Below, in pieces: positions 6,926 to 11,877 of a DNA stretch of 19,487 nucleotides. The notes under the pieces are model-generated. The model worked only from the letters and a program-made list of their open reading frames with translations. It had not been told where the DNA came from and searched no databases. Positions within the stretch are counted from its first letter, which is position 1. Each line of letters starts with the position of its first letter. Source of the stretch: a virus (lineage: Duplodnaviria > Heunggongvirae > Uroviricota > Caudoviricetes); IMG/VR virus record IMGVR_UViG_651053023_000006, one strand, 5' to 3'. Both the position numbers and the translations under genes were made by a program.

Positions 6926-7696
6926 ATGGAGACCGTTTTTGACGCACTGAAAGCGATGGGAAAAGCCACGTCGGTAGAGCTGGCTGCGCGACTTGATATC
7001 AGTCGTGAAGAAGTACTGAACGAGCTGTGGGAACTGAAAAAGGCTGGCTTCGTTGATAAAAGCGTATACACCTGGCGTGTGGCTGGCGAAGGTGAATCAG
7101 GGGTAGCCGAAGAGCAGCCAGCACAATCTGAAGTACAGGATGTGCTAACCAGGGAGGTCGAACGAAAAGTTACCGCTGACATGATGATTGAGTTTATCGG
7201 TCAGGAGGGAGCTAAAACGTGTGAGGAACTGGCGGGTAAGTTCGGTGTCAGCACTCGCAAGGTTGCTTCCACGCTGGCGGTAGTAACCGCAACGGGGCGG
7301 CTGGCACGCGTAAACCAGAACGGTAAATTTCGCTACTGCATACCGGGCGATAATTTACCAGCAGAGCCGAAAGCTGCATTGGTAGCGGAAACTGATGGTA
7401 AAGCCTTTCCTCAGCCAGCAAGTGTTGCGTTACCAGTACAGGAAGCTGCAACACAGGAAGATATTAAAACAGAAACTGTGGCGGACATTGTGCAGTCGCT
7501 GCCATCGTTCACTGAAACACGAGCTGATGGCCTGATTTTACCATCGCTGCATATGGCAAACCGCGAACTGCGCCGGGCGAAAAGTCATGCCCAGAAGTGG
7601 GAGCGAGTTTGCGCCGCGCTGCGGGAGCTGAACAAGCACCGGGATATTGTCCGACAGATTGTCGATTCCTCCAGTCGTATTGTGCCGGAAAAGTGA
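6926..7696 (+). CDS. Hypothetical phage protein with two winged-helix-like segments
   Basis: Track ORF trimmed to ATG 6926, which has a GGGAGGA RBS. Two similar segments ([30 protein letters not shown] and [30 protein letters not shown]). Confidence 0.55.
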
Positions 7697-7712
7697 TTCC
7701 TGGGGAGGGCTT

Positions 7713-8168
7713 ATGGCAAAAGTATTTACACAGGAAGAGCGAGAAAAAATTAAAGGGCAGGTTGTTGAGCTGGTACGCCAGAGCGGGCGCGAGACGTTAC
7801 GGCAACTGGAAGCGAAAACTGGTGCGACAAGATATCTGATGAGTGTTATCGCCAGAGAGCTGGTTGCCAGTGGCGATGTATATAACTCTGGCTACGGGTT
7901 ATTCCCGTCTGAACAGGCTCGTAAGGACTGGCAAAACGCCCGCAAAAAACTCTCAAGGGCAAATCTGAAGAAACCATCTGTGGTTGATCCGGACCTTATC
8001 TGGTCATTACCAGACGGAGAAATGCGTCGCTACGATAGGCGCCTGAATATAATCTGTCGCGAGTGCCGGAAGAGCGAAGCTATGCAGCGTGTACTGGCAT
8101 TTTACCAGAATGGTTTTCGAGAGACATTCGGTGAACAGGTTGTGCATGAGGGAAATCATGGCGCTTAG
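7713..8168 (+). CDS. Hypothetical phage protein (N-terminal HTH-like segment)
   Basis: Track ORF trimmed to ATG 7713, which has a GGGGAGGG RBS. 151 aa. No catalytic motif recognised. Confidence 0.55.
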   Translation: MAKVFTQEEREKIKGQVVELVRQSGRETLRQLEAKTGATRYLMSVIARELVASGDVYNSGYGLFPSEQARKDWQNARKKLSRANLKKPSVVDPDLIWSLPDGEMRRYDRRLNIICRECRKSEAMQRVLAFYQNGFRETFGEQVVHEGNHGA

Positions 8169-8278
8169 GCAATTGTGTAGACGCGTTGACGGTCGAAAGC
8201 ATAGGAGGGTTGATTGATCGTTCTAGTTATGCTGTCAGAGCGAAAGCGCAGGAACTGGGTATCAATAGGATGTTAAGA

Positions 8279-8287
8279 GGGGGGGGG
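8279..8287. repeat. G9 homopolymer tract separating two ORF fragments
   Basis: Nine consecutive G read directly in the sequence. The upstream fragment ends ...INRMLRGGGL and stops at TAA 8291-8293. The downstream frame encodes YNQSKKHPQSDIELVRKLHQCGVPRRDIAVKREMSLGMINQYVYFDRRAHEV and stops at 8445-8447. Confidence 0.9.
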
Positions 8288-8595
8288 TTATAACCAATCA
8301 AAAAAACATCCGCAAAGCGATATTGAGCTAGTGCGGAAGCTTCATCAGTGTGGAGTTCCCCGCCGTGATATCGCTGTAAAACGCGAAATGTCCTTGGGCA
8401 TGATTAATCAGTACGTTTATTTCGACAGGAGAGCGCATGAAGTTTGACATCTAGACAACTGGGGGAGCGCTGAAAACGTTCTTAATTGATGTTGGATTCG
8501 CTTTACATACTGAACTGTTTGGCTGAAAGACACGGTAGTATCACCAATCAAGGTGCTTTTGATAAACGCTTGTGTGTTTGTTTTTTAATCCATTG

Positions 8596-8624
8596 TTGAC
8601 AACTAGGTTAGTTTTCCATATCAT
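8596..8624 (+). promoter_or_regulatory. Candidate sigma70 promoter for the ParA-like gene
   Basis: TTGACA (8596-8601), 17-nt spacer, TATCAT (8619-8624), about 30 nt upstream of ATG 8655. Confidence 0.5.
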
Positions 8625-8654
8625 CAATAAAAGTGTAAAACTAATGGTGGCGAT

Positions 8655-9701
8655 ATGACTAGTGAATCAAATGTTAATGCTCTGATAGAGCGTCAATTCG
8701 AAGTTGCTGACGGTAATGTAAGAAGTCTTAATTTGCCGAAATATGATAAATATACAGTATGTAATTTACGGGGAGGCATTGGTAAGACATCTTTAACTTT
8801 TAATCTGTCATATTTGGCGGATAACGCATTAATCGTGGATACGTGCCCGCAAGGAAATTTATCATATTTTTTTGACAATAATTATGCATCTTCGTCTAGC
8901 ACAACTGCAAATGACCTCTTAATGCCTTATTTTGTTCCAGGGCTTGGATTTGCAACGCGTGCTGCAAAGCTAGTATCATCAACTAATGCTTGGTTTGCGG
9001 GCAAGAATAACTATTTTATTCAATCTGATAGTCAACTTTATCTTCTACCTACGCAAATGGCGAATGCTCTGGCTCAAGCCAGAACAATTTCTGGGGCTAC
9101 TCAGCAGGTTGTTATTGATACAATTCTTTTTTCTCTGAAGAAAGAAATAGCCAGAGAAATGGTTGAAACTGGTACTACAAAAGCGTTAATTGATACATCA
9201 CCTTTTTTCTCTGGAGCGACGCATTTATCTTGGCATGCAACAGATGCTTTAATAGTTCCAGTGAGGACAGATCAGCAATCGATTAATTCATTAAGATTAC
9301 TTATTGATACTCTGACTAAACCAACATCAGAATTTAGAAAGATAATGCCGTCTGATGGCCATACACCAAAAATTCAGATGGTGGTTATTACCCATTGCGG
9401 ATGGTCAACAGTGGCAGGAGCAAGGAATAAACCAAATCAACAGACAAAAATGTACATCGAAGCTGTAAGAGAGGTAATTCGACAAAATATTAGTAATTTT
9501 ACAACAGATGATCCTAATAATCACATTGTGATTCTTGATGATTTTCTGGGTAGTGGCAGAATGTCAAGTGCTAAGTCTAAACCATTAGAGTTGTTAAATC
9601 CAGGAGATGCAATGACTGTGAATAGAGTTAGGACATCCGTGAATTTATCTGTTAACAAAATAAAAAATGAATTAAAGTTCATTCACAACTCCATATGGTA
9701 A
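8655..9701 (+). CDS. ParA/MinD-superfamily P-loop ATPase with atypical deviant Walker A (Arg replaces the signature Lys)
   Basis: 348 aa. Motifs: YTVCNLRGGIGKTSLTFNLSYL (deviant Walker A, R for K), LIVDTCPQGNLS (compare ParA LLIDLDPQGN), ALIDTSPFFSG ... DALIVPVRTDQQSINSL (Walker B region). About 30-aa N-terminal and about 60-aa C-terminal extensions. Region is visibly AT-rich. Confidence 0.8.
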   Translation: MTSESNVNALIERQFEVADGNVRSLNLPKYDKYTVCNLRGGIGKTSLTFNLSYLADNALIVDTCPQGNLSYFFDNNYASSSSTTANDLLMPYFVPGLGFATRAAKLVSSTNAWFAGKNNYFIQSDSQLYLLPTQMANALAQARTISGATQQVVIDTILFSLKKEIAREMVETGTTKALIDTSPFFSGATHLSWHATDALIVPVRTDQQSINSLRLLIDTLTKPTSEFRKIMPSDGHTPKIQMVVITHCGWSTVAGARNKPNQQTKMYIEAVREVIRQNISNFTTDDPNNHIVILDDFLGSGRMSSAKSKPLELLNPGDAMTVNRVRTSVNLSVNKIKNELKFIHNSIW

Positions 9702-9858
9702 ATGACATTTTATTTGAATAATCTGGATTGATAATTATTGTTACATTAATTGTTATTAATTCTAAATAATCCTATCGTTCTTCAGGATGAGATAATTTAT
9801 ATTTATTTGTGTTGTGATTTTTTGAATTTATTTAGGTTTATGAACTGTTTTAGATGAA

Positions 9859-9978
9859 ATGAATCATGAATACGAAATTGTTGCGGTACTGATAACGAGG
9901 AAAGACCTCTGCGAGGTACGAATCCGAACCGGCCAGACGGAGGTCGCTGTCTTCACAGCTTACGAACCTGAGGAGTAA
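9859..9978 (+). pseudogene. hok/gef-family type I toxin remnant, 5'-truncated
   Basis: 39-aa frame MNHEYEIVAVLITRKDLCEVRIRTGQTEVAVFTAYEPEE. The C-terminal 28 residues match the conserved Hok/Gef/RelF tail (LTRKxLCEx[RH]xRxGxxEVAxFxAYE). The N-terminal transmembrane helix is missing and no hydrophobic stretch is encoded upstream in any frame. GC-rich hairpins and a terminator follow, as in hok mRNA 3' regions. Confidence 0.6.
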
Positions 9979-10046
9979 GAGACCAGGCGAGGGAGAAATC
10001 CCTCGCCACCTCTGATGTGTCAGGCATCCTCAACGCACCCGCACTT

Positions 10047-10069
10047 AACCCGCTTCGGCGGGTTTTTTA
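10047..10069 (+). terminator. Rho-independent terminator (hok-remnant 3' end)
   Basis: ACCCGC-TTCG-GCGGGT hairpin (10048-10063) followed by T6. A strong GGCGAGGGA-GAAA-TCCCTCGCC hairpin lies upstream at 9986-10007. Confidence 0.7.
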
Positions 10070-10116
10070 TTGGTTGACAAAATTATGAATATGCACCAAT
10101 ATCTTGGTTGACAAAA
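10070..10116 (+). promoter_or_regulatory. Candidate promoter/operator with two direct TTGGTTGACAAAA repeats
   Basis: TTGGTTGACAAAA at 10070-10082 and 10104-10116. Each contains TTGACA. Located between the terminator and the start of the downstream two-gene operon. Confidence 0.4.
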
Positions 10117-10151
10117 GTCGTTTTTTGCACGGATTAGGCGGAGAAGTGTCT

Positions 10152-10745
10152 ATGCAGAACCATCCATTCCCTTGGGAGTTCTTTCCTGAGTTAACAGAGG
10201 AGCGTTTAACCATTATAGCTGAGGAGTTGCTCAGGATACAGGATATTACTCATGAGTTATTGTCATCGCCCTATGATGATAATTACACTCGTGGTGGTTG
10301 TACATTTGGGCGTCAGCGGCAGGCGTTGCTACAAATGTGCGTACGAAAGACATATGACTGGTTAAGACTACTTAATCCTGGCATGGATCTTACGTTTTCA
10401 ATTGGGAATGTCCCTATTCGTTTCTTTACTGATGACGCAGATAACCCCAAGAAACGCGGTTTTTTCAAAAGAAATGATGCTGATCGACTCTTTGAGTCAG
10501 AGGAGACTACTCCAACTATGCATCGCTTTGTGGTTGAAAAGCCTGAATTTGAAGGCGAGGGTGGTAGAGTCATTTTTAATGGCTATAACGTGTTTGGTGA
10601 GATCGTGTCAACTTGGACATATGGTGCGGACCGTGTTGTTATGCTGAACTCTGTCGATGATGTACCTCCAGCACCGGTACCTATCGAACTAGAACCTATC
10701 AGTGCGTCTAAGACTGAGAAGGAAAAGAAACAAAATAGCAAATAG
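10152..10745 (+). CDS. Hypothetical protein (197 aa), first gene of a two-gene operon
   Basis: Track ORF starts at TTG 10104; I prefer ATG 10152 with GGAG about 9 nt upstream. AT-rich codon usage. No family motif recognised. Stop TAG at 10743-10745 is 10 nt before the next start. Confidence 0.65.
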   Translation: MQNHPFPWEFFPELTEERLTIIAEELLRIQDITHELLSSPYDDNYTRGGCTFGRQRQALLQMCVRKTYDWLRLLNPGMDLTFSIGNVPIRFFTDDADNPKKRGFFKRNDADRLFESEETTPTMHRFVVEKPEFEGEGGRVIFNGYNVFGEIVSTWTYGADRVVMLNSVDDVPPAPVPIELEPISASKTEKEKKQNSK

Positions 10746-10755
10746 TGGGTGAAAT

Positions 10756-11877
10756 GTGTTTAACGGTACTAATTTAAGACTTGCTCGTCTGTATCACGAG
10801 CTATCTCTGGAGCAGGTTGCTGAGAAGGTTGAAAAAACACGCCAGTATGTACAGCGACTGGAGTCTGGTTCAGCTACTCCATCCCCAGAGCTTATAAATA
10901 AATTAGCCGAGGTTTTGCGCGTGAAGCCCGCCTTTTTCGAAGGGCAGGAACATTCTCCTGTTAATGAAGAGATTGTACATTTTCGTAAACGCGCCTCGAC
11001 AAGGATGTCAACGAAGCTATCAACACTCGCTAAGGCTGAGTTTTATCGTCGTTTTATTGATGTATTTGAAGATAACCTTAATTTGTCACCTGTTCGATTT
11101 CCTGAATTTCGTGTCCATACACAAGAAGATATCGAGCGAGCGGCAGAAAAATGTCGTATTGAGTGGGGCTTAGGCTTTGGCCCAATTGAAAATATGACTC
11201 GCCTTGCCGAGAAACTTGGGGCGTTTGTTACTTCATTTGACTCCGTTTCGGATGAAGTAGATGCACTGTCTGTTCCTCTACGAAGGCCTTTTATTGTTCG
11301 AAATACAGCTAAAAATTCACCTTGTAGGCAACGCTTTGATATTGCTCATGAGGTTGCCCATTTGATTCTTCATGAAGGAATTTCTACTGGGGATAGATTA
11401 ACTGAATCCCAGGCAAACCGTTTTGCCTCTGCTCTGTTGCTTCCCAGAACGTCGATGGCGAAATATTTTCCAAGACCTGTGGGGGGGAGGATAAATTGGC
11501 AGGGACTAAGCCAATTTAAGTTGACATGGAAAGTAAGTAAGGCTGCCATTGTTTACAGGGCTCATCAATTAGGACTTTTGACTGATGAGCAGTACAGAAC
11601 TGCATTTATGGGGTTGAAACGGAAAGGGGAAGCTATTGATGAAAAAGAAGATTATCTAATCCCTCATGAGCGTCCTGAGTTATTCCGTCGGGCTTTATCG
11701 TTTTTATTTGAAGAGTTAGGATACGACCCACAGCGTATAGCTGATGAAATGGATATAGAAGTGGACATTTTTTATGAGTTAGTAGGAGATGATCTTCCTG
11801 CGGTTCATGAACTGCCAGGAAGTGGTGATGTTGTTTCACTACAATCTTACCGAACTCTTAGAGGCAAAATTCACTAG
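10756..11877 (+). CDS. XRE-family HTH fused to ImmA/IrrE-type zinc metallopeptidase (COG2856-like)
   Basis: GTG start at 10756. N-terminal HTH (LRLARLYHELSLEQVAEKVEKTRQYVQRLESG...ELINKLAEVL). Central HEXXH motif (FDIAHEVAHLILHE) in the arrangement typical of ImmA/IrrE peptidases. 373 aa. Confidence 0.75.
   Translation: MFNGTNLRLARLYHELSLEQVAEKVEKTRQYVQRLESGSATPSPELINKLAEVLRVKPAFFEGQEHSPVNEEIVHFRKRASTRMSTKLSTLAKAEFYRRFIDVFEDNLNLSPVRFPEFRVHTQEDIERAAEKCRIEWGLGFGPIENMTRLAEKLGAFVTSFDSVSDEVDALSVPLRRPFIVRNTAKNSPCRQRFDIAHEVAHLILHEGISTGDRLTESQANRFASALLLPRTSMAKYFPRPVGGRINWQGLSQFKLTWKVSKAAIVYRAHQLGLLTDEQYRTAFMGLKRKGEAIDEKEDYLIPHERPELFRRALSFLFEELGYDPQRIADEMDIEVDIFYELVGDDLPAVHELPGSGDVVSLQSYRTLRGKIH

What the first reader, a model, noticed from the sequence alone, without database searches (positions are those of the whole stretch)
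8186..8447. G9 homopolymer splits a small HTH-like ORF
Seen in sequence: a run of nine G (8279-8287) separates a fragment ending ...AKAQELGINRMLRGGGL from a downstream frame encoding ...SDIELVRKLHQCGVPRRDIAVKREMSLGMINQYVYF, which resembles a Hin/resolvase-type HTH. With eight G the two fuse into one ORF of roughly 55-85 aa. Established knowledge: G-runs this long are rare in enterobacterial genomes and prone to slipped-strand mispairing. Inference: either an ON/OFF slippage switch for a small DNA-binding protein just upstream of the cargo island, or a sequencing artefact or decayed gene.
Basis: partly seen in the sequence, partly recalled or inferred. Interest (0 to 1): 0.45.

Follow-up and report, generated by a model that had tools for sequence, protein, structure and literature searches.

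The report
Variable G-run in decayed prophage gene
A run of nine G's really does break a small prophage DNA-binding gene, and its length differs between sister prophages, but the gene had already lost its proper start, so this is most likely ordinary gene decay at a slippery spot and not an evolved on/off switch.

Summary
G9 sits at 8279-8287 and separates two fragments of one small gene; G8 fuses them into an 86-aa ORF. That exact 86-aa product exists in public E. coli and Salmonella assemblies.

Near-identical copies of this cassette carry G6TT, G7TT (the commonest), G8TT, G9T, G9TT (this window and at least two other assemblies), G11T, G12T and G5ATT. The window's own 650-bp haplotype carries G7, G8 and G9. 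So the tract is a real indel hotspot, and G9 here is not a private sequencing error.

The gene belongs to a family of about 105-aa proteins with two helix-turn-helix domains (phrog_323). Other family members read R-G-D-Y at the tract site and have no G run.

In the whole DUF977-linked clade the gene has further damage:
- It has lost the conserved N-terminal helix.
- Its Shine-Dalgarno-preceded ATG (8158) is thrown out of frame by an extra base near 8172.
- The only in-frame start (TTG 8186) has no ribosome-binding site.
- Amino-acid change on this branch looks relaxed (14 nonsynonymous to 5 synonymous).

Copies sampled without regard to the ORF are almost all out of frame, and one worldwide ETEC haplotype keeps G7 in 14 of 15 copies.

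Verdict: a decaying gene remnant with a slippage-prone homopolymer. This window carries a +1 (off) allele. Low interest.

The parts
8279..8287 (+). G9 homopolymer, followed by TT at 8288-8289. It is a +1 allele of a length-polymorphic tract.
   Evidence: Alleles G6TT, G7TT, G8TT, G9T, G9TT, G11T, G12T and G5ATT occur in near-identical copies. Other family members read CGG GGT GAT TAT (R-G-D-Y) at this site.
8186..8293 (+). 5' fragment of the small two-HTH gene. It is a 35-codon ORF from TTG to TAA, covering helices 2-3 of the N-terminal domain plus the linker.
   Evidence: alignment to intact homologues. SD pairing before TTG 8186 is only -2.4 kcal/mol at a spacing of 15 nt.
8276..8447 (+). 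3' fragment in the +1 frame, open from 8276 to stop codon TGA 8445-8447. It encodes the C-terminal three-helix HTH domain.
   Evidence: frame translation. AlphaFold gives helices 44-55, 60-66 and 71-79 with pLDDT 71-85 in the 87-aa fused form. The equivalent domain in the intact 105-aa homologue has pLDDT around 88-93 over most of its length.
8158..8217 (+). Vestigial native start. ATG 8158 has an SD (GAGGG, 5-nt spacing) and overlaps the DUF977 stop. It now opens a 19-codon out-of-frame ORF (MALRQLCRRVDGRKHRRVD*).
   Evidence: The ATG lines up with the ATG of the MILRQCAGT... start of intact homologues.
8170..8175 (+). Site of one extra base (CAATTG against CAG-TG in intact homologues). It puts ATG 8158 out of frame with the gene body.
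   Evidence: The exact flanking string containing CAATTG was found in every tract-bearing copy checked for it, L001-L037. An extra base is also present in the ETEC1748 remnant.
7713..8168 (+). Upstream DUF977 gene. Its 3' end replaces the part of the small gene that encodes the conserved N-terminal W..E...LR helix; the junction lies near 8150.
   Evidence: PGAP annotation of L001/L002 mapped onto the window, plus alignments.
8596..8624 (+). Sigma-70 promoter-like site (TTGACA-17-TATCAT, 11 of 12) in front of the ParA-family cargo gene. It marks the downstream edge of the remnant region.
   Evidence: This is a consensus match only.
8655..9701 (+). ParA-family (AAA_31) gene, the first gene of the cargo downstream. 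It was used as an anchor for sampling tract alleles without regard to the ORF.

Best explanation
The region 8158-8447 is the remnant of a small prophage gene for a DNA-binding protein with two helix-turn-helix domains. The gene sits behind the replication and DUF977 genes of a lambdoid prophage.

In this DUF977-linked lineage the gene first lost its 5' end and the reading frame from its native ATG. The linker codons R-G-D-Y then changed by substitution and by gain of one codon into a G8 run. Such a run is prone to strand slippage during replication, and it has since drifted to G6, G7, G9, G11 and G12 in different hosts.

The window carries the +1 allele G9TT, which stops translation at TAA 8291-8293. 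The frame toggling is real at the DNA level. It is best read as neutral indel drift in a dispensable, probably untranslated ORF, not as a maintained phase-variation switch.

Shown: the tract polymorphism, the in-frame alleles, the two further 5' lesions, and the absence of the tract from the wider family. Inferred: slippage as the mutational mechanism, the lack of expression, and neutrality.
For: - Intact homologues of 93-105 aa lie in the same position in many lambdoid prophages and in phage D6 and ~90-kb E. coli plasmids. 586 of 5426 complete E. coli genomes hold a copy covering at least 80% of the region.
- The family matches phrog_323 at E 3.5e-14, and 583 cluster representatives match at E <= 1e-3.
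- Nearly all of the 40 aligned members, most of them about 100-120 aa, carry an N-terminal W..E...LR helix. This is helix 8-17 of the AF2 model, mean pLDDT 83. The window clade lacks it because the DUF977 3' end abuts at about 8150.
- The codons LRQCAGT after the ATG differ among intact homologues almost only at third positions, so they are coding there. In the window an extra base puts this ATG out of frame. The exact flanking string containing the extra base was found in all tract-bearing copies checked (L001-L037).
- TTG 8186 has no usable SD: -2.4 kcal/mol at spacing 15, against -6.1 at spacing 5 for ATG 8158.
- ETEC1748 holds a further-eroded DUF977-linked remnant. It has the same junction and keeps the ancestral CGG GGT GAC at the tract site. 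The 5' truncation therefore predates the G tract.
- Branch-specific changes are 5 synonymous to 14 nonsynonymous on the window branch, against 8 to 5 on the pPEC399_3 plasmid (L003) branch (Fisher p = 0.07).
- There are eight tract alleles but only one SNP inside the ORF among 33 copies. The window haplotype itself carries G7, G8 and G9.
- Copies sampled without regard to the ORF are almost all out of frame. Among complete genomes, 12 are G7 and 1 is G6. In IMG/VR and metagenomes, 4 are G7, 1 is G6, 1 is G9TT and 1 is G11T. The 7 places shown from the ParA anchor are 4 G7, 1 G9TT, 1 G8 and 1 G5ATT, and 11 similar places were not read.
- The ParA product is listed in 826 index blocks, the exact 86-aa in-frame product in 44.
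- PGAP calls no CDS here in the two G7 RefSeq genomes whose annotation was read in full.
Against: - Pairwise dN/dS between the repaired window ORF and intact homologues is still 0.20-0.30, against 0.12-0.24 among intact ones. Most of its history was therefore under purifying selection, and any inactivation is recent.
- The branch test is not significant (p = 0.07).
- Apart from the tract, the 86-codon ORF has no stop or other indel in any of the copies compared. The clade is so young (one SNP) that this says little.
- In-frame alleles are not rare in absolute numbers: the index lists P0011 in 44 blocks, and G8TT and G9T are two distinct in-frame alleles.
- Re-initiation at TTG 8186, 18 nt after the DUF977 stop, cannot be excluded. 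A product with a single intact HTH domain might retain some activity.
Confidence: 0.75

Rival explanations
1. The tract is a true contingency locus. Slipped-strand mispairing in the G run reversibly switches a small HTH regulator, translated from TTG 8186 by coupling to DUF977 termination. This would give prophage-carrying cells heritable ON and OFF subpopulations, perhaps affecting the cargo genes downstream.
For: - In-frame and out-of-frame lengths both occur on the same 650-bp haplotype (G7, G8, G9).
- Two independent in-frame alleles exist, G8TT and G9T.
- The exact ON product is found in E. coli and Salmonella assemblies with different replication and immunity modules.
- The ORF is otherwise intact, and the C-terminal HTH domain folds with pLDDT 71-85.
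- Pairwise dN/dS is 0.2-0.3.
- TTG 8186 lies 18 nt after the DUF977 stop codon.
Against: - There is no SD at TTG 8186; the native ATG is out of frame; helix 1 of the N-terminal domain is lost.
- The N-terminal part of the truncated product models poorly, with pLDDT 46-55.
- The tract is absent from every other family member examined. It arose after the 5' truncation.
- The ETEC haplotype, with isolates from six or more countries, has G7 in 14 of 15 copies. That argues for slow change, not fast switching.
- Copies sampled without regard to the ORF are about 95% OFF.
- The sister assemblies that differ by G8/G7 also differ by a non-homopolymer indel, so that case may be assembly error.
Confidence: 0.13
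2. The G9 in this window is a sequencing or assembly error at a homopolymer, and the real allele is G8 (intact ORF) or G7.
For: - Homopolymers are error-prone on several sequencing platforms (general knowledge).
- CP122775 and CP122784, sister assemblies, differ by G8/G7 and by another 1-nt indel.
- L039 also has A6 instead of A7 nearby.
- A second G7 run at 11481 reads G6 in two assemblies from one project.
Against: - G9TT is also found in L030, an IMG/VR contig that is 99.90% identical to the window over 14.4 kb but not identical (13 mismatches). It is also found in L039 (CP098955), with 4 similar places not shown.
- G7TT is reproduced in more than 12 independent complete genomes.
- G8TT and G9T are reproduced in many draft assemblies.
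Confidence: 0.06
3. The frameshift is compensated during expression, by transcriptional slippage of RNA polymerase on the G run or by ribosomal frameshifting. A full-length protein would then be made whatever the tract length.
For: Long homopolymers can cause RNA polymerase slippage, and recoding at runs is known for other genes (general knowledge). All observed tracts are at least 6 nt long.
Against: - In E. coli transcriptomes, slippage insertions prevail in runs of A and T (abstract of PMC5574713), not G.
- The alleles include in-frame, +1 and -1 states. No single programmed shift would serve them all.
- The tract is not conserved in the family.
- With G9TT a TAA stop follows the run at once.
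- The initiation problem at the 5' end remains.
Confidence: 0.03

Closest known systems
Homopolymeric-tract phase variation (contingency loci) of Neisseria, Haemophilus, Campylobacter and Bordetella
   Same: A poly-G run inside a coding region. Changes of one base toggle the reading frame. Both ON and OFF lengths are found among close relatives, even on one haplotype.
   Different: - The gene has lost its native start and N-terminal helix.
- The tract is a recent, lineage-specific accident and is absent from homologues.
- The length is stably inherited across a global ETEC haplotype.
- Most copies are OFF.
- No switching rate or phenotype is known.
Frameshifted pseudogenes in cryptic or mosaic lambdoid prophages of E. 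coli
   Same: Intact homologues exist elsewhere; there are several frame-disrupting lesions; PGAP calls no CDS in the two RefSeq genomes read in full; a related remnant is more eroded (L045).
   Different: One lesion lies in an unusually long G run. It is therefore reversible in principle and is highly polymorphic, with eight alleles against one SNP.
phrog_323 ('transcriptional regulator, D5-like'), the small prophage proteins that PGAP names 'DNA-binding protein', as in phage D6 and O157:H7 prophages
   Same: Sequence membership: E 3.5e-14 for the repaired product and 2.9e-24 for the plasmid homologue. The two three-helix domains are joined by a linker carrying a conserved G-[DE]-x-H motif. 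The gene sits in the same position after the replication, DUF1627 and DUF977 genes.
   Different: The window copy lacks helix 1. Its linker motif is changed to G-G-G-Y-N, and it is frameshifted. The family's function has not been tested, as far as my searches show.
Bipartite HTH DNA-binding domains (Tc3/Mos1 transposase N-terminal domains, Pax paired domain, Myb repeats) and the Tn3/Hin resolvase HTH
   Same: Foldseek's top hits for the intact homologue model are mostly two-HTH or single-HTH DNA binders: 1u78 Tc3, 6pax and 1k78 Pax, 5cy1 Tn3 resolvase, 7s03 SETMAR.
   Different: No match reaches E <= 0.001, and whole-model TM scores are 0.3-0.44. Pfam HTH_7 is below its threshold. This is a fold-class resemblance, not family membership.

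Membership tests
Simple-sequence-repeat contingency (phase-variable) locus | Repeat tract whose length differs among very close relatives | tested here: met
   Eight alleles (G6TT, G7TT, G8TT, G9T, G9TT, G11T, G12T, G5ATT) occur among copies at least 98.5% identical. G7, G8 and G9 share the window's haplotype.
Simple-sequence-repeat contingency (phase-variable) locus | The ON length gives a complete, expressible gene (start signal, full domain set) | tested here: not met
   The ON ORF starts at TTG 8186 without an SD (-2.4 kcal/mol, spacing 15). The native ATG is out of frame. The conserved N-terminal helix is missing. Expression itself was not measurable.
Simple-sequence-repeat contingency (phase-variable) locus | High-frequency reversible switching within a clone (read-level or colony-level heterogeneity) | not testable with these tools
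   No reads were available. Indirectly, 14 of 15 copies of the ETEC haplotype keep G7, which argues for slow change.
Simple-sequence-repeat contingency (phase-variable) locus | Tract maintained by selection (conserved in orthologues or recurrently restored) | tested here: not met
   Other family members read R-G-D-Y (CGG GGT GAT TAT) with no run. One copy has the run interrupted (G5ATT).
Frameshifted pseudogene / gene remnant | Intact homologues exist, and the local copy is disrupted relative to them | tested here: met
   Intact 93-105-aa homologues were found. The window copy has a 5' truncation, a +1 base near 8172 and the +1 G tract.
Frameshifted pseudogene / gene remnant | Relaxed selective constraint on the lineage | tested here: inconclusive
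   The window branch has 5 synonymous to 14 nonsynonymous changes, the L003 plasmid branch 8 to 5; Fisher p = 0.07. Pairwise dN/dS is 0.20-0.30 against 0.12-0.24 among intact copies.
phrog_323 small two-HTH prophage regulators | Significant profile match over both domains | tested here: met
   hmmscan E 3.5e-14, residues 1-84 of the repaired product on profile positions 165-248. The profile search recovers 583 representatives.
Hin/resolvase HTH (Pfam HTH_7, PF02796) | Score at or above Pfam's gathering threshold | tested here: not met
   13.5 and 14.3 bits against a cut-off of 23.8. Foldseek hits to the Tn3 resolvase HTH have E of 0.25 or more.
Programmed recoding site (transcriptional slippage or ribosomal frameshift) | One fixed out-of-frame arrangement with a conserved slippery run across homologues | tested here: not met
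   Alleles are in-frame, +1 and -1. The run is absent from homologues.

The most novel reading that the evidence does not exclude
The G tract could be a working homopolymer switch in E. coli, where such switches are hardly known. It would turn on a truncated one-and-a-half-domain HTH protein made by termination-reinitiation after DUF977. Alternatively it would change translation-dependent read-through into the ParA cargo. Either way, prophage-carrying lineages would be bet-hedging the control of a cargo or defence island.
Probability: 0.07. Interest if true: 0.6.

Novelty: new member of a known kind. Interest (0 to 1): 0.2.

Why it matters
Mainly for annotation and quality control. This locus will flip between 'DNA-binding protein', 'hypothetical protein' and no call depending on a homopolymer length, and it is a place where long-read assemblies may disagree. 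It is also a small, clean example of how a homopolymer can arise by substitution inside a disabled gene and then become the fastest-changing site of a prophage cassette (eight alleles against one SNP). If the minority reading were true, it would be a rare case of simple-repeat phase variation in E. coli. Nothing found here favours that reading.

Tried and rejected
- I looked up the short OFF-state peptides (34-48 aa) and the vestigial upstream ORF by exact sequence, hoping to count OFF alleles. None is in the collection, because gene callers do not call them (one search failed on a 19-aa entry).
- A pattern scan of genome contigs (one genome per species) gave 0 hits.
- The metagenome scan added only one new copy.
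- NCBIfam gave no family.
- Pfam gave only sub-threshold HTH hits.
- The phage collection holds only phage D6.
- Foldseek against the PDB gave no match at E <= 0.001.
- Two literature searches found nothing on this locus or on poly-G switching in E. coli prophages.
- An Rfam search of 7500-10800 found nothing in 8150-8650, so an RNA-gene reading of the region was dropped.
- I checked whether A6 in L039 compensates for G9TT. It does not, because the TAA stop precedes the A run.
- I considered the G8/G7 difference between CP122775 and CP122784 as evidence of recent switching. I rejected it because the pair also differs by a non-homopolymer indel.

Full report
**1. The observation**

The sequence at 8278-8290 is A-G9-TT, so the G run lies at 8279-8287 as reported. 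ORF 8186-8293 (TTG start) ends ...AKAQELGINRMLRGGGL*. A second frame is open from 8276 to 8447 and encodes ...GGGYNQSKKHPQSDIELVRKLHQCGVPRRDIAVKREMSLGMINQYVYFDRRAHEV*. Removing one G fuses them into an 86-codon ORF. Shuffles of the window give 0.10 G9/C9 runs, with 14 of 200 shuffles holding at least one. The run alone is only mildly unusual; the comparative data below make it a real feature.

**2. What the gene is**

The window is part of a mosaic lambdoid prophage. The order is YdaS/YdaT-like genes, replication genes, DUF1627, DUF977, this region, then a ParA-family gene and further cargo.

Intact homologues of 93-105 aa lie in the same position in many E. coli prophages. They also occur in ~90-kb E. 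coli plasmids and in phage D6, annotated 'DNA-binding protein' or 'hypothetical protein'. 586 of 5426 complete E. coli genomes hold a copy covering at least 80% of the region.

- The repaired product matches phrog_323 ('transcriptional regulator, D5-like') at E 3.5e-14.
- A profile search finds 583 cluster representatives at E <= 1e-3.
- Pfam gives only sub-threshold HTH hits (HTH_7 13.5 bits against 23.8), and NCBIfam gives none.

An AlphaFold model of an intact 105-aa member (mean pLDDT 83) shows two three-helix domains, at 8-44 and 62-102, joined by a linker at 45-61. Foldseek returns no significant match. Its top hits are mostly bipartite or single HTH DNA binders: Tc3 and Mos1 transposase N-terminal domains, Pax paired domain, Tn3 resolvase HTH. 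The tract site corresponds to the linker motif R-G-D-Y-H. Its glycine is nearly invariant in the family.

**3. The tract is polymorphic**

| Sample | How anchored | Tract alleles |
|---|---|---|
| 13 close relatives (98.5-99.7%) in complete RefSeq E. coli genomes | DNA match | 12 G7TT, 1 G6TT |
| Pattern scans of IMG/VR and metagenomes | DNA pattern | 4 G7TT, 1 G6TT, 1 G9TT (L030), 1 G11T (L034) |
| Contigs carrying the linked ParA protein, 7 places shown (11 similar places not read) | Neighbouring gene | 4 G7TT, 1 G9TT (L039), 1 G8TT, 1 G5ATT |
| Exact 86-aa fused product (P0011) | ORF product (biased to in-frame) | 7 G8TT and 3 G9T among the 10 loci fetched |
| One Logan contig | ORF product | G12T, also in frame |

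- P0011 is in public collections under E. coli and Salmonella accessions, and the index lists it in 44 blocks.
- G9T is a synonymous GGT to GGG change.
- Outside the tract, the 33 aligned copies differ at a single site inside the ORF (8193 T/C) and have no other indel.
- The window's own 650-bp haplotype carries G7, G8 and G9.

The tract is therefore by far the most mutable site of the cassette. The window's G9TT is an inherited allele shared with L030 and L039, not a private error. L030 is 99.90% identical to the window over 14.4 kb but not identical.

Some differences between assemblies may still be errors. The sister assemblies CP122775 and CP122784 differ by G8/G7 and also by a non-homopolymer indel.

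**4.

*Missing N-terminal helix.* Nearly all of the 40 aligned family members begin with a conserved W..E...LR helix, which is helix 1 of the first domain. In the window clade the 3' end of DUF977 abuts at about 8150, and this helix is gone.

*Native start out of frame.* The remaining native start, ATG 8158, has a good SD (GAGGG, -6.1 kcal/mol, spacing 5). It aligns with the ATG of the MILRQCAGT... start of intact homologues. Those codons vary among homologues almost only at third positions, so they are translated there. In the window one extra base (CAATTG against CAG-TG) puts this ATG out of frame, giving a 19-codon dead-end ORF. The exact flanking string containing the extra base was found in every tract-bearing copy checked for it, L001-L037.

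*No usable alternative start.* The only in-frame start for the body is TTG 8186, which has no usable SD (-2.4 kcal/mol at spacing 15). TTG 8210 has a strong SD but zero spacing. The truncated 87-aa form models poorly in its N-terminal part (pLDDT 46-55), while the C-terminal domain is confident.

**5. Order of events**

A further-eroded DUF977-linked remnant in ETEC1748 shares the same junction with DUF977 and the extra base. At the tract site it still reads CGG GGT GAC (R-G-D), and its 3' half has been replaced by different cargo. The 5' truncation therefore predates the G tract.

The tract arose within an already damaged gene, by GGT to GGG, GAT to GGT and gain of one GGG codon.

Parsimony counts at sites invariant in three outgroups give 5 synonymous and 14 nonsynonymous changes on the window branch. 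The pPEC399_3 plasmid (L003) branch has 8 and 5 (Fisher p = 0.07). This is suggestive of relaxed constraint but not significant. Pairwise dN/dS is 0.20-0.30, against 0.12-0.24 among intact copies, so any inactivation is evolutionarily recent.

**6. Switch or drift?**

For a switch:
- ON and OFF alleles share one haplotype.
- There are two distinct in-frame alleles.
- The ORF is otherwise intact.

Against a switch:
- The missing start signals and domain helix.
- The absence of the tract from the rest of the family.
- An interrupted tract in one copy (G5ATT).
- The near-fixation of G7 in an ETEC haplotype sampled from the USA, Mexico, Viet Nam, Guinea-Bissau, Bangladesh, Japan and Indonesia (14 of 15 copies).
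- The scarcity of in-frame alleles in copies sampled without regard to the ORF: 1 of 27 copies read. These copies are not independent, and a few records recur between samples.
- The ParA product is listed in 826 index blocks, the in-frame product in 44.

Recoding by transcriptional slippage is unlikely. In E. coli, slippage insertions prevail at A and T runs (abstract of PMC5574713). The alleles also span all three frames.

**7. Conclusion**

This is a decaying remnant of a two-HTH prophage regulator gene. A substitution-born G run in it has become an indel hotspot, and the window carries the +1 allele. I give this reading a probability of about 0.75, a maintained phase switch about 0.13, a sequencing artefact in this window about 0.06, and recoding about 0.03.

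The finding is real but ordinary. Its practical value is for annotation and as a homopolymer check for assemblies. Two literature searches found no description of this locus.

Noticed in passing
window 11481-11487 (inside ORF 10756-11877, +): A second G run (G7) lies inside the 373-aa HTH_3/Peptidase_M78 gene. It reads G6 in L001 (ETEC4090) and L021 (CP122775), splitting the gene into 245 + 118 aa. It reads G7 in 12 other copies. Both G6 assemblies come from one project, so this may be an assembly error or a shared allele.
   Followed up: partly
window 9987-10068 (+): A sub-threshold match to the isrK Hfq-binding sRNA family: 31.2 bits against a gathering score of 50, E 3.6e-4, over the full model length. 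It lies next to where relatives carry a Hok/Gef remnant.
   Followed up: no
window 8596-8624 (+): A near-consensus sigma-70 promoter-like site (TTGACA-17-TATCAT, 11 of 12) about 30 nt upstream of the ParA-family ATG at 8655. A weak terminator-like hairpin sits at 8463-8483, just after the remnant's stop. This suggests the cargo has its own promoter.
   Followed up: no
window 8448-8654 and downstream; L026, L028, L044, L045: The site after DUF977 and the remnant is a cargo-exchange point. Here it holds ParA plus the HTH/M78 gene. L026, L028 and L044 hold ParA plus a Fic-domain gene. ETEC1748 (L045) holds an ATP-binding protein plus a STAS-like domain protein, and there the remnant is cut further.
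   Followed up: partly
L039 (CP098955.1), equivalent of window 8300-8306: This G9TT copy also has A6 instead of A7 in the nearby A run. All 32 other copies have A7. It is either further decay or a homopolymer error in the assembly.
   Followed up: no
L001 and L002 (RefSeq annotation between DUF977 and ParA): The locus-tag numbering skips one tag exactly at the remnant (RS15500 to RS15490, and RS17185 to RS17175), yet no feature is listed there. An earlier gene or pseudogene call seems to have been dropped.
   Followed up: no
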